Source: Escherichia coli
GTDB taxonomy: Bacteria > Pseudomonadota > Gammaproteobacteria > Enterobacterales > Enterobacteriaceae
NCBI RefSeq assembly: GCF_044647545.1
Contig: NZ_CP172818.1
Direction: 5' to 3' (one strand)
Length of the DNA: 64,000 nucleotides
The position numbers were made by a program. Below are positions 24,801 through 27,800 of this stretch, piece by piece. Every line of letters begins with the position of its first letter. The first letter of the stretch is position 1.

Positions 24801-27800
24801 AAAGGAAACCGGGAAATCCCTGGTTTTTCTGACAAGCAGACGCCATTATTTGTGTCTGCCTATGTTCGTTAATTCGTTCATCAGGAAATTATCTCAATGT
24901 CACGTTATAAAACAGACAATAAACAGCCACGATTTCGTTATTCAGTTCTGGCCCGCTGCGTGGCGTGGGCAAATATCTCTGTTCAGGTTCTTTTTCCACT
25001 CGCTGTCACCTTTACCCCAGTAATGGCGGCACGTGCGCAGCATGCAGTTCAGCCACGGTTGAGCATGGGAAATACTACGGTAACTGCTGATAATAACGTG
25101 GAGAAAAATGTCGCGTCGTTTGCCGCAAATGCCGGGACATTTTTAAGCAGTCAGCCAGATAGCGATGCGACACGTAACTTTATTACCGGAATGGCCACCG
25201 CTAAAGCTAACCAGGAAATACAGGAGTGGCTCGGGAAATACGGTACTGCGCGCGTCAAACTGAATGTCGATAAAGATTTCTCGCTGAAGGATTCTTCGCT
25301 GGAAATGCTTTATCCTATTTATGATACGCCGACAAATATGTTGTTCACTCAGGGGGCAATACATCGTACAGACGATCGTACTCAGTCAAATATTGGTTTT
25401 GGCTGGCGTCATTTTTCAGGAAATGACTGGATGGCGGGGGTGAATACTTTTATCGATCATGATTTATCCCGTAGTCATACCCGCATTGGTGTTGGTGCGG
25501 AATACTGGCGTGATTATTTGAAACTGAGCGCCAATGGTTATATCCGGGCTTCTGGCTGGAAAAAATCACCGGATGTTGAGGATTATCAGGAACGCCCGGC
25601 GAATGGCTGGGATATTCGTGCTGAGGGCTATTTACCTGCCTGGCCGCAGCTTGGCGCAAGCCTGATGTATGAACAGTATTATGGCGATGAAGTCGGGCTG
25701 TTTGGTAAAGATAAACGCCAGAAAGATCCACATGCGATTACCGCTGAAGTGAATTACACGCCAGTGCCTCTTACCCTGAGTGCCGGGCATAAGCAGTGCA
25801 AGAGTGGTGAGAATGACACTCGCTTTGGCCTGGAAGTTAATTATCGGATTGGCGAACCTCTGGAAAAACAACTCGATACAGACAGCATTCGCGAGCGTCG
25901 AATGCTGGCAGGCAGCCCTATGACCTGGTTGAGCGTAATAACAACATCGTTCTTGAGTACCGCAAATCTGAAGTGATTATTGCTCTGCCTGAGCGTATTG
26001 AAGGCAAGGGCGGTCAGACACTTTCCCTGGGGCTTGTGGTCAGCAAAGCAACTCACGGACTGAAAAATGTGCAATGGGAAGCGCCGTCATTACTGGCTGA
26101 AGGTGGCAAAATTACCGGTCAGGGTAGTCAGTGGCAAGTAACGCTCCCGGCTTACCGTCCAGGCAAAGACAATTATTATGCGATTTCAGCAGTTGCCTAC
26201 GATAACAAAGGTAATGCCTCGAAACATGTGCAGACAGAAGTGGTTATTACCGGAGCTGGTATGAGCGCCGATCGCACGGCGTTAACGCTTGACGGTCAGA
26301 GCCGTATTCAAATGCTTGCTAACGGTAATGAGCAAAAGCCGCTGGTGCTGTCTCTGCGCGACGCCGAGGGCCAGCCAGTCACGGGCAGAAGGGCAGATCA
26401 AGACTGAACTAACCTTCAAACCGGCTGGAAATATTGTGACTCGTTCCCTGAAATCCACTCTGTCTTTACGCACCGGAACCCACATCAGGGTGAGTTCACG
26501 CAACACCGAAGCCCTAGGGTATGTTACGACGGAACCATCAGTAGCAAGATTAGTACTACAACAAAACTCATCAGAACCAGATGAGATTGCAAACTCCACC
26601 ACCTAACGACCTAGGTAACGTGGTTGCTGCTGCTGTAAGAAGTTCTACTACACGCAGCTCGCTGGACAAATAATATGAAATATCCAATTACTCCCTCTAC
26701 CTGAATTAATTATCCGAACTAAAGCAACACAAACAAAAACCCTATCAAACAAATCTCACAAACAAAACCGAAAACAACCATACAAAAAACACTCCCCTCC
26801 CCCCCCCCTGGCCCCACCAACCACTCCTCTCTCCAACAGCACTCCTTTCCTACCAAGTCCACCACAACCCACTCACTCCACACACACAAACTCTAAAAGA
26901 GACCAAAAAAAAAACTACTATACGGTGGAACCTACTCACCGGGTAATCCTGTGAACCAGGAGAGCCACCCCAGTTCAGCGACGTTCCGCCAGACACTAAT
27001 GGGATACCGTTGTCCATTTCGGAACTAAAACCAGGGGATAACAGCGCCACGGTTTCTTCGACCCGTGCCGGATGAACGTTGTTTGCGCTCAGCTTCAGGG
27101 AAATACCCCAGTTAACGTAAAAACCGGTGGTGGCGGCACAGCTTACGGCAATCATAGACTACGGCAAAAGATGCCTTATAACAACCCCTGTGACCAGCCT
27201 CACGCCGGAACCGCCGTCATACGGCTGCGGCGTATCACGGCAATAATGTCTGGGAAGAAACAAGCGATGATGGGAAGCAGATTGCACAGTTTACGCGGCG
27301 GTGATGCGCGGAACCTATGAGATACGGCGTCGGCAGGAAATGACCACCTTCGATGCGACAGACTATAACGTTTACCGATAAGGCGATCGCAACCTTCTCT
27401 GGTATTGCAGGTCAGAACAAAATACTATCCTCATCAAACCAAACAACTATAAATTACGGTGTACTGTGCCAACCTTAACCGATCGCCTGCAGTTCAATGA
27501 TATTATGCGATCACGCTGACCGCACACAACTCGGCTTCGTTAAACCTGCAAGAATGACACTGCGACAACGATCAAAATGAGCAAAGGGCCAGGCTATGCC
27601 TTTACCTGACGGCGACCGAGATAAAAACACTAACCCTGTTCCGGGCGATCTTCATTATACACTCACGGCGCAAGTGAAGCGCATAATTCTGGGTGGAAGC
27701 CAAGATGAGCGGAAAGCAGAGTTGCAGTGCTACGATAATGCCGTGCGTGACCGAAAAAATTCATTCATGAGCAGAAAGTGATCAGAACAAGGTCAGTATA

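What the first reader, a model, noticed from the sequence alone, without database searches (positions are those of the whole stretch)
24897..26400. eaeH adhesin remnant: intimin beta-barrel region then frameshift and gradual sequence decay
The ORF encodes an intimin/invasin-like N-terminal region and stops after a 1-bp-type frame change near 25918; the next frame continues with Ig-like repeat sequence (...SLRDAEGQPVTG) before the sequence degenerates into low complexity around 26400. The progressive loss of sense towards the IS3-like block looks like increasing error rather than a clean IS insertion junction.
Basis: seen in the sequence. Interest (0 to 1): 0.3.

Follow-up and report, generated by a model that had tools for sequence, protein, structure and literature searches.

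The report
Corrupted fdeC gene sequence, not biology
The E. coli adhesin gene fdeC (eaeH) is read correctly at first. It then dissolves into a garbled mix of two real versions of this locus, which looks like a sequence-production artefact and not a decaying gene or a transposon insertion.

Summary
The ORF at 24897-25976 is the N-terminus and beta-barrel of FdeC/EaeH. A 1-bp deletion at 25918 shifts the frame, the next frame continues as FdeC to about 26392, and similarity then collapses.

It is neither natural decay nor an IS insertion. The flanks match strain ECONIH1 almost perfectly: 0 differences in 12.4 kb on the left and 3 in 18.5 kb on the right. The 2.45 kb between 25773 and 28224 falls from 99% identity to 70-88% scraps and A/C-rich low-complexity runs, then returns abruptly to exact sequence.

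The bad stretch is bounded by the two K-12 eaeH::IS3 junctions. The left match is base-exact and the right match is within about 15 nt.

Inside it lie two interleaved, colinear, degraded copies: full-length fdeC, and K-12's IS3 (chain score 92.5 against a null of 22±3.4). There are no IS ends, no target duplication and no transposase ORF.

None of 5,426 complete E. coli genomes carries these indels.

The same faults occur elsewhere in the window: about 60 indels across the yahD-yahM region and prpC-prpE, a mosaic IS1, and a poly-C/poly-A patch between prpB and prpC.

Verdict: not a real feature. It is most likely the output of a directional, non-biological sequence-producing process. Interest is low.

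The parts
24897..25916 (+). fdeC/eaeH 5' part: signal/N-terminal region plus the inverse-autotransporter beta-barrel (FdeC residues 1-341). It is identical to ECONIH1-type fdeC up to 25772.
   Evidence: Pfam IAT_beta E=4e-102; tblastn 99.7% over residues 1-341; no differences from ECONIH1 before 25773.
25769..25776 (+). First error: a 3-bp (CTG) deletion at 25773, exactly at the K-12 eaeH::IS3 left junction. The window reads CTCTT-ACCC-TGAG. That is K-12's junction (CTCTT|ACCCAGC) followed by a rejoin to full-length fdeC (CTCTTCTGACCCTGAG).
   Evidence: Three-way comparison; the K-12 alignment ends at 25776; absent from 4,685 genomes and from metagenome contigs.
25918..25918 (+). The ORF stops at 25976.
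   Evidence: not present in any of 4,685 E. coli genomes that have this segment.
25919..26392 (+). FdeC residues 343-501 in frame 3, the first part of the passenger. It contains a 3-bp deletion at 25978 and a substitution at 26226.
   Evidence: tblastn 97.5%; difference list.
26388..26465 (+). Two further 1-bp deletions (26388, 26393), then the last recognisable in-frame piece (FdeC residues 503-526). Dense errors begin at 26453-26460.
26460..26700 (+). Rapid decay. The sequence is still colinear with fdeC (ECONIH1 locus L003 15017-15262, then about 15650-15750), but tile scores fall to near background.
   Evidence: Tile analysis; alignment.
26700..26915 (+). A/C-rich low-complexity block (C10 at 26799, A10 at 26905). 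GC skew is -0.80 and AT skew is +0.46. It has no counterpart in fdeC.
26920..27220 (+). Partial re-lock onto fdeC (L003 15273-15681) at 82-88% identity with many indels. It overlaps a weak IS3 signal (IS3 positions about 484-648).
   Evidence: BLAST pieces; tiles; chain blocks.
27239..28067 (+). Degraded fdeC 3' part at 71-76% identity, out of order (L003 16884-17232, 16735-16952, 17233-17680). About 1.1 kb of fdeC (L003 15624-16734) is skipped. Degraded IS3 3' part is interleaved (IS3 973-1075 at 27667-27780, 77%; 1133-1164 at 27861-27895; up to 1224 at 28026).
28100..28224 (+). Poly-A low-complexity block (A27, A11), then unalignable sequence. Together with the preceding scraps from 28034, it stands in for about 435 bp of the reference: the fdeC 3' end, the intergenic region and the 3' end of the ykgA-like gene.
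28225..28900 (-). ykgA-like AraC/HTH regulator gene, residues 1-227 of 285. The C-terminal 58 codons are destroyed by the corrupted stretch. Exact ECONIH1-type sequence resumes abruptly at 28225-28228, about 15 nt before the K-12 IS3 right junction (about 28243).
   Evidence: tblastn 99.1% over residues 1-227; junction comparison.

Best explanation
Window 25773-28224 is a non-biological corruption of the fdeC-ykgA interval. The underlying locus is ordinary: the inverse-autotransporter adhesin gene fdeC (eaeH), lying convergent to a ykgA-like regulator gene.

Two real structural versions of this locus exist in E. coli. One is full-length fdeC, as in strain ECONIH1. The other is K-12's eaeH::IS3, where IS3 replaces the rest of fdeC and the end of ykgA.

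The window copies the ECONIH1-type allele perfectly up to the exact base where K-12's IS3 begins. There it takes four bases that fit both versions (ACCC), which skips CTG. It continues as fdeC with errors that become steadily more frequent. It then degenerates into an interleaved, colinear blend of degraded fdeC and degraded IS3, broken by A/C-rich and poly-A runs. It snaps back to exact sequence where the two versions become homologous again.

Shown: the coordinates, the blend, the uniqueness of the sequence and the recurrence of similar faults elsewhere in the window.

Inferred: the producing process runs left to right along the + strand. Onset is gradual, recovery is abrupt, and the junk is A/C-rich on the + strand whatever the gene orientation. 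This is the behaviour expected from an autoregressive sequence generator, or an equivalent sequential copying or consensus procedure that becomes uncertain at strain-variable sites. The frameshift at 25918 is part of this error ramp and is not evidence that the organism's fdeC is a pseudogene.
For: (1) Flank identity against internal divergence. Against ECONIH1 there are 0 differences in 13368-25772 and 3 in 28228-46748. The enclosed 2.45 kb shows 12 differing positions (five indels, three substitutions) and then 70-88% scraps. At the flank divergence of about 1e-4, roughly 0.25 neutral changes would be expected in 2.45 kb.

(2) The borders coincide with the K-12 IS3 junctions. The left match is base-exact and forms a hybrid junction. 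The right match is within about 15 nt.

(3) Both haplotypes are present as colinear ghosts. The fdeC chain score is 409. The IS3 chain score is 92.5, against 22±3.4 for shuffles (maximum 30) and a maximum of 35 for real-sequence controls. The chain blocks span IS3 positions 66-1224.

(4) There are no IS ends, no target duplication and no transposase ORF.

(5) The sequence is unique. No complete E. coli genome covers 80% or more of 24600-28400. The best match to the decayed part is 76.5% over 57%, to the same fdeC allele as the flanks. None has the three early indels. No exact hits were found in the genome or metagenome collections.

(6) The same faults appear elsewhere in the window. About 60 small indels, only 17 of them in homopolymer context, break yahD-yahM and prpC-prpE. 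The prpB-prpC intergenic region is replaced by C17/A11. An IS1 copy is a mosaic no more than 97.7% identical to any of 74,583 IS1 places.

(7) The backbone is a chimera not seen in nature: K-12 structure carrying ECONIH1-type alleles.

(8) The pattern is asymmetric. Error spacing to the right of the left junction is 145, 60, 248, 162, 5 and 60 nt. At the right end, sequence goes from unalignable to exact within a few bases.
Against: The provenance of the window is unknown, so no process can be demonstrated directly.

Long stretches of the window reproduce real strains without a single error, which is unusual for a purely generative source. That is compatible with a real assembly having local problems.

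The right-hand recovery starts about 15 nt before the K-12 junction, not exactly at it.

fdeC is genuinely a frequent pseudogene: it was complete in only 67% of 126 genomes (PMC6714894). A real lesion underneath the noise cannot be strictly excluded.
Confidence: 0.88

Rival explanations
1. Assembly or polishing artefact of a real genome. A K-12-structured backbone or reference was corrected with reads from an ECONIH1-type strain, or from a mixed culture. Where the two differ structurally (IS3 against 3.7 kb of fdeC), a graph or POA consensus threads alternately through both haplotypes and gives a garbled sequence of intermediate length.
For: The backbone has K-12 structure with ECONIH1-type alleles. 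Sequence absent from K-12 is missing (6.3 kb at 24346, 586 bp at 29162), and K-12-only sequence is exact K-12. Interleaved colinear ghosts of both haplotypes and an intermediate length (2452 bp, against 1255 and 3680) are what a mixed consensus would give. The IS1 copy looks like a collapsed-repeat consensus.
Against: Consensus artefacts should be symmetric, with good sequence extending inward from both anchors. Here the right anchor is preceded by poly-A junk. The K-12-only region 47-57 kb should be either exact K-12 or uniformly noisy. Instead it is noisy, while 1-13368 and 57500-60500 are exact. Most indels are not homopolymer errors. Long A/C-rich runs are not typical of a consensus.
Confidence: 0.3
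2. Genuine pseudogene. fdeC in this strain acquired a real frameshift at 25918, and the downstream, now unselected passenger region decayed by ordinary mutation.
For: fdeC is often incomplete in E. coli (complete in 67% of genomes, PMC6714894). K-12's eaeH is a pseudogene. The frameshift is a simple 1-bp deletion.
Against: Loss of selection cannot raise the mutation rate. The flanks differ from ECONIH1 at about 1e-4 per site, while the interior differs at 12-30% and carries dozens of indels. Decay also crosses the fdeC stop codon into the neighbouring gene. IS3-derived scraps are interleaved. Poly-A27 and A/C runs are present. No other genome shares any of the lesions.
Confidence: 0.03
3. A normal IS3 insertion, either K-12-type eaeH::IS3 or another IS, with a sharp junction that the first reader missed.
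For: K-12 has IS3 at exactly this position. There is IS3-like sequence at 27667-27780.
Against: There are no IS3 terminal repeats, no 3-bp duplication, and no InsE/InsF ORFs (best tblastn E=0.11). IS3 similarity is only 67-86% in short scraps. About 700 bp of fdeC that K-12 lacks follows the supposed junction at 99% identity. A true IS3-family insertion in fdeC (strain 98203) shows perfect inverted repeats and a GAA duplication.
Confidence: 0.01
4. Recombinational replacement of the fdeC passenger by a highly divergent allele from another species or lineage.
For: The passenger regions of inverse autotransporters are variable. Sharp identity boundaries can arise from recombination.
Against: The best match of the decayed part is still the same allele group as the flanks (ECONIH1, CFSAN061771, MS6198 and others), at 76.5% over 57%. 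There is no open reading frame. Segments are out of order and 1.1 kb is missing. Low-complexity runs and IS3 scraps are present. The left boundary is gradual, not sharp.
Confidence: 0.01

Closest known systems
Intact fdeC (inverse autotransporter adhesin FdeC, WP_022645237.1) of E. coli ECONIH1 / CFSAN061771
   Same: Same locus and synteny, with convergent ykgA-like and rclC genes downstream. The upstream neighbours differ: the aldo/keto reductase genes that precede fdeC in ECONIH1 lie within the 6.3 kb that the window lacks, so the window has the K-12-type ykgR side upstream. The sequence is identical for the first 876 bp of the gene and 99.4% identical to 26459. Pfam IAT_beta barrel.
   Different: The reference gene is 4,254 bp with an uninterrupted 1,417-aa frame. 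In the window, 3,680 bp of reference (L003 14321-18000) is represented by 2,452 bp of increasingly garbled sequence.
E. coli K-12 eaeH pseudogene interrupted by IS3A (b0297-insE1/insF1-ykgA')
   Same: The anomaly starts at the base where K-12's IS3 begins and ends within about 15 nt of where it ends. Degraded IS3 sequence is present in the same orientation and order. ykgA is truncated in both.
   Different: K-12 has an intact 1,255-bp IS3 with transposase genes and no fdeC passenger. The window has no IS ends or transposase, and it carries about 700 bp of good fdeC sequence past the junction. Its allele is ECONIH1-type (about 97% to K-12).
fdeC::IS3-family insertion in E. coli strain 98203 (NZ_CP173554.1)
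   Same: fdeC is disrupted in its passenger region in an otherwise identical allele.
   Different: It is a clean insertion with a sharp junction, perfect terminal inverted repeats (TGAACCGCCCCGGG...), a 3-bp GAA target duplication and an intact transposase. fdeC resumes at 100% on the other side. The window shows none of these.
Degenerate output of sequence generators, or garbled consensus at structural heterozygosity (from general knowledge, not tested with a model here)
   Same: Exact copying of well-represented sequence. Errors begin at points where known genomes diverge. Drift into homopolymer or low-complexity runs is followed by sudden re-locking onto real sequence. Alternative variants are blended (IS1 mosaic, fdeC/IS3 blend).
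   Different: The process could not be identified with the tools available. Very long error-free stretches and exact strain-level alleles would also fit a real assembly with local faults.

Membership tests
FdeC/EaeH inverse autotransporter adhesin gene | N-terminal inverse-autotransporter beta-barrel domain (Pfam PF11924 IAT_beta) | tested here: met
   E=4e-102, 342 bits, residues 76-340.
FdeC/EaeH inverse autotransporter adhesin gene | Chromosomal position with the ykgA-like regulator and rclCBA downstream (upstream neighbours vary between strains) | tested here: met
   Synteny with ECONIH1 and K-12.
FdeC/EaeH inverse autotransporter adhesin gene | Continuous passenger of Ig-like (Big) repeats of about 1,400 aa, giving a functional adhesin | tested here: not met
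   The frame breaks at 25918, 26388 and 26393. Beyond residue 526 only scraps at 27-44% identity remain. No Pfam hits in downstream ORFs.
IS3 insertion (K-12-type eaeH::IS3) | Terminal inverted repeats of IS3 | tested here: not met
   No match to IS3 positions 1-60 or 1225-1255. No suitable inverted repeat pair in 25600-28400.
IS3 insertion (K-12-type eaeH::IS3) | orfA/orfB transposase (InsE/InsF) coding capacity | tested here: not met
   Best tblastn E=0.11 over 24-25 aa. No Pfam family in local ORFs.
IS3 insertion (K-12-type eaeH::IS3) | 3-bp target-site duplication or a sharp junction with the target | tested here: not met
   The junction is a 3-bp deletion hybrid, followed by 99%-identical fdeC. 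Contrast strain 98203.
Natural pseudogene decay | Divergence of the dead gene is commensurate with neutral divergence of its flanks from the nearest relative | tested here: not met
   Flanks have 3 differences in 30.9 kb. The interior has hundreds in 2.45 kb.
Natural pseudogene decay | Lesions shared with related isolates | tested here: not met
   0 of 4,685 genomes share the early indels. 0 of 5,426 cover the stretch.
Sequence-production artefact (generated, mis-polished or garbled sequence) | Sequence is a blend of alternative real haplotypes, bounded by their points of structural divergence | tested here: met
Sequence-production artefact (generated, mis-polished or garbled sequence) | The same kind of damage recurs at unrelated sites of the same record | tested here: met
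   Indel-riddled yahD-yahM and prpC-prpE, the C17/A11 patch at 61235-61290, and the mosaic IS1.
Sequence-production artefact (generated, mis-polished or garbled sequence) | Not supported by raw reads or an independent sequence of the source | not testable with these tools
   The provenance of the window is unknown and no read data are available.

The most novel reading that the evidence does not exclude
The sequence is real. In that case a strain otherwise identical to ECONIH1-type E. coli would carry a locally hypermutated fdeC-ykgA interval. For example, it could be the scar of repeated IS3 insertion, imprecise excision and error-prone repair at the K-12 insertion hotspot, leaving interleaved IS3 and fdeC fragments and homopolymer tracts.
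Probability: 0.02. Interest if true: 0.6.

Novelty: not a real feature. Interest (0 to 1): 0.06.

Why it matters
The main value is as a quality warning. This window should not be mined for biology at 25773-28224, 46748-57300, 60500-64000 or the IS1 at 1171-1939. Apparent pseudogenes, frameshifts, low-complexity 'elements' and novel ORFs there are products of sequence corruption.

It also gives a practical test for such artefacts. The signs are near-perfect identity to a known strain on both sides, onset at a point where known genomes differ structurally, colinear ghosts of both alternatives inside, and abrupt re-locking. The underlying biology is already known: fdeC is an adhesin gene, and in K-12 it is interrupted by IS3.

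Tried and rejected
(a) Clean IS insertion. BLAST and tblastn of K-12 IS3, InsE and InsF against the window, plus inverted and direct repeat searches, found no IS ends, target duplication or transposase.

(b) A natural allele carrying the early indels. A megablast of 25730-26020 against 5,426 genomes gave a best match of 97.7%, meaning all seven deleted bases are present everywhere. The exact hybrid-junction 39-mer is absent from metagenome contigs.

(c) The decayed stretch existing in a public genome. A distant BLAST found nothing better than 76.5% over 57%. An exact 51-mer is absent from the GTDB species representatives.

(d) A divergent fdeC allele. Rejected because the best hits are the same allele group as the flanks.

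(e) Uniform long-read error. Rejected because 30 kb is error-free while other parts carry about one indel per 200 bp, and only 17 of 60 indels are in homopolymer context.

(f) Simple K-12 reference-guided consensus. It explains the backbone chimera. It does not explain the 700 bp of non-K-12 fdeC past the junction, or the noise in the K-12-only region 47-57 kb.

(g) Pfam scans of ORFs inside the decayed stretch returned no families.

(h) L002 could not be loaded in Python, so its junctions were read directly.
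Full report
**What is at the coordinates**

The window is the E. coli chromosomal region running from the right-hand part of prophage CP4-6 through pao, ecp, ykgMO, fdeC(eaeH), ykgA, rclCBA, ykgEFG, bet and yah to prp.

The ORF at 24897-25976 (359 aa) carries the inverse-autotransporter beta-barrel: Pfam PF11924, E=4e-102. It is 99.7% identical to residues 1-341 of the 1,417-aa FdeC of strain ECONIH1.

Relative to intact fdeC, a single G is missing at 25918. The reading frame then runs 18 nonsense codons to a stop at 25976. Frame 3 continues as FdeC residues 343-501 (25919-26392, 97.5%), ending in ...SLRDAEGQPVTG. Two more 1-bp deletions follow at 26388 and 26393, and frame 1 then carries residues 503-526.

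**The shape of the decay**

Against the nearest relative (ECONIH1, L003) the gene is identical from its start to 25772. The differences then fall as follows:

| Position | Change |
|---|---|
| 25773 | 3-bp deletion |
| 25918 | 1-bp deletion |
| 25978 | 3-bp deletion |
| 26226 | substitution |
| 26388 | 1-bp deletion |
| 26393 | 1-bp deletion |
| 26453-4 | substitutions |
| from 26460 | dense errors |

Tiling the region in 80-nt pieces against fdeC gives these stages:

- Scores are perfect or near-perfect to about 26400.
- Scores collapse to background by about 26700.
- An A/C-rich low-complexity block spans 26700-26915 (GC skew -0.80; C10 and A10).
- A partial recovery follows at 26920-27220 (82-88% identity to L003 15273-15681).
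- About 1.1 kb of fdeC is then skipped.
- Pieces of the fdeC 3' part follow at 71-76% identity, some out of order (27239-28067).
- A poly-A block follows (A27 and A11, 28100-28190).
- Exact sequence returns abruptly at 28225-28228.

In total, 3,680 bp of reference is represented by 2,452 bp. The damage crosses the fdeC stop codon and the intergenic region. It also removes the last 58 codons of the convergent ykgA-like regulator, of which residues 1-227 of 285 remain (28900-28220, minus strand).

**Why this is not natural decay**

The flanks are essentially identical to ECONIH1: 0 differences in 13368-25772 and 3 in 28228-46748. That is about 1e-4 per site. A pseudogene mutates at the neutral rate at most, so about 0.25 changes would be expected in 2.45 kb. 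Hundreds are seen, including dozens of indels and homopolymer runs of up to 27 bases.

None of 5,426 complete E. coli genomes covers 80% or more of 24600-28400. The best match to the decayed part is 76.5% over 57% of it, to the same fdeC allele as the flanks. None of the 4,685 genomes holding this segment has the three early indels. A decayed 51-mer and the junction 39-mer have no exact match in the species-representative genomes or the metagenome contigs.

**Why this is not an IS insertion**

BLAST of K-12 IS3A finds no terminal sequence. tblastn of InsE and InsF gives nothing better than E=0.11. ORFs in the stretch have no Pfam family. Repeat searches find no terminal inverted repeats or target duplication, only low-complexity repeats.

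It has a sharp junction, perfect inverted repeats (TGAACCGCCCCGGG... / ...CCCGGGGCGGTTCA), a 3-bp GAA duplication and an intact transposase, and fdeC resumes unchanged on the other side.

**What it is: a blend of two real haplotypes**

In K-12, eaeH is cut by IS3A, which abuts a truncated ykgA. The window's first error lies at exactly that junction:

- ECONIH1 reads GCCTCTTCTGACCCTGAG.
- K-12 reads GCCTCTT|ACCCAGCAATAG, where the bar marks the IS3 start.
- The window reads GCCTCTTACCCTGAG.

The window follows K-12 through ACCC and then rejoins fdeC at the identical ACCC three bases downstream. That produces the 'CTG deletion'. Exact sequence resumes about 15 nt before K-12's IS3 right junction.

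Inside the stretch, degraded IS3 is present alongside the degraded fdeC, in K-12's orientation and order. The clearest pieces are:

- IS3 positions 976-1075 at 27667-27780 (77%, E=3e-12).
- IS3 positions 1133-1164 at 27861-27895.
- Weaker pieces that take the chain from IS3 position 66 to 1224.

A colinear chain alignment of 26460-28224 to IS3 scores 92.5. Shuffled IS3 scores 22±3.4 (maximum 30), reverse and reverse-complement controls score 24-27, and twenty real E. coli segments of the same length score at most 35. Short fragments of two unrelated sequences, interleaved and each colinear, are not something a cellular process produces. They are the signature of a computational mixture.

**The rest of the window shows the same faults**

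- **K-12 segment.** Window 1-13368 is exact K-12 MG1655, apart from an IS1 copy.
- **Mosaic IS1.** The IS1 at 1171-1939 is a mosaic of IS1 variants: 16 sites match ECONIH1's IS1, 7 match K-12's IS1C and 14 match neither. It is no closer than 97.7% to any of 74,583 IS1 places in complete genomes.
- **Chimeric backbone.** 13368-46748 is the exact ECONIH1-type allele but with K-12 structure. It lacks ECONIH1's 6.3 kb at 24346 and 586 bp at 29162. No complete genome joins these alleles across those junctions.
- **Noisy K-12-like tail.** At 46748, exactly where ECONIH1 has an IS1-mediated deletion, the window becomes K-12-like but noisy. About 60 small indels fall at 47038-57264 and 61286-63994. 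Only 17 are in homopolymer context, and many are 2-5 nt long. They break yahD, yahE, yahF, yahG, yahI, yahJ, yahL and yahM, plus prpC, prpD and the start of prpE. In between, 57500-60500 is again exact K-12.
- **prpB-prpC spacer.** This spacer of about 440 bp, of which about 400 bp is missing, is replaced by a patch containing C17 and A11 (61235-61290).

Damage therefore clusters where E. coli genomes differ from one another: IS copies, structural junctions, strain-specific regions and an intergenic spacer.

**Likely mechanism**

Shown: the stretch is a unique, non-coding blend bounded by haplotype divergence points, in a record that has similar faults elsewhere.

Inferred: the process is directional along the + strand. 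Three observations support this:

- Errors ramp up gradually to the right of the left junction, with spacings of 145, 60, 248, 162, 5 and 60 nt.
- Recovery on the right is instantaneous and is preceded by junk, not by good fdeC 3' sequence.
- The junk is A/C-rich on the + strand both here and at 61235, regardless of gene orientation (the poly-A overlies a minus-strand gene).

This favours an autoregressive or otherwise sequential generator that loses confidence at variable sites, drifts into low-complexity output and re-locks onto memorised sequence.

A consensus or polishing artefact on a K-12-structured backbone with ECONIH1-type reads is the main rival. It explains the chimeric backbone, the blend and the IS1 mosaic. 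It predicts symmetric decay from both anchors and either exact or uniformly noisy K-12-only regions, and neither is seen. Either way, the feature is not biological.

**Comparison with what is known**

fdeC/eaeH is a well-characterised, broadly conserved inverse-autotransporter adhesin (PMC3324786). It was complete in only 67% of 126 complete genomes (PMC6714894). K-12's copy is interrupted by IS3 (RefSeq annotation). Nothing about the underlying locus is new. The 5' 876 bp of the gene is a perfect ECONIH1-type allele. The frameshift at 25918 belongs to the error ramp and should not be scored as a strain-specific pseudogenisation.

**Verdict**

- Observation: confirmed.
- Interpretation: partly supported. 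'Increasing error, not a clean IS junction' is right. 'Adhesin remnant' as a biological state is not supported.
- Novelty: not a real feature.
- Interest: about 0.06.

A residual 2-3% is left for the possibility that the sequence is real. That would be remarkable, and read-level or PCR confirmation would be needed to revive it.

Noticed in passing
window 1171-1939: This IS1 copy sits in otherwise 100% K-12 sequence but is a mosaic of IS1 variants. Of 37 variable sites, 16 match ECONIH1's IS1, 7 match K-12's IS1C and 14 match neither. It is no more than 97.7% identical to any of 74,583 IS1 places in complete E. coli genomes.
   Followed up: yes
window 1-13368 / 13368-46748 / 46748-64000: The backbone is a chimera. 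It is exact K-12 MG1655 to 13368 and exact ECONIH1-type allele to 46748, but with K-12 structure: ECONIH1's 6.3 kb is missing at 24346 and 586 bp is missing at 29162. After that it is K-12-like. Switch points coincide with structural differences between the two strains. No complete genome joins these alleles across the 24346 or 29162 junctions.
   Followed up: yes
window 47038-57264: About 49 small indels (1-5 nt, mostly not in homopolymers) lie in a K-12-like sequence. They break yahD (4 single-base deletions), yahE, yahF, yahG, yahI, yahJ, yahL and yahM. The series starts 290 nt after the point where ECONIH1 has an IS1-mediated deletion.
   Followed up: partly
window 61235-61290: In the prpB-prpC intergenic spacer (about 440 bp in K-12 and CFS3292), about 400 bp is replaced by a short patch containing C17 and A11.
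   Followed up: partly
window 61286-63994: Eleven further small indels disrupt prpC, prpD and the first codons of prpE. Substitutions against K-12 are also elevated from about 60500.
   Followed up: partly
window 52000-54000: yahI and yahJ show about 5% substitutions against K-12, compared with under 1.5% in the neighbouring K-12-like sequence. This could be a different natural allele or further blending. It was not resolved.
   Followed up: no
window 36934-36935 and 29284: These are the only differences from ECONIH1 in 29162-46748: two single-T deletions near ykgG/ykgH and one substitution 122 nt after the 586-bp junction.
   Followed up: no
window 28061-28933 (-): The 290-aa ORF listed mechanically here is the ykgA-like AraC/HTH gene with a false C-terminal tail (…FFFFFFFFFPFAFG…) translated from the poly-A junk. 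Only residues 1-227 of the real 285-aa protein are encoded.
   Followed up: yes
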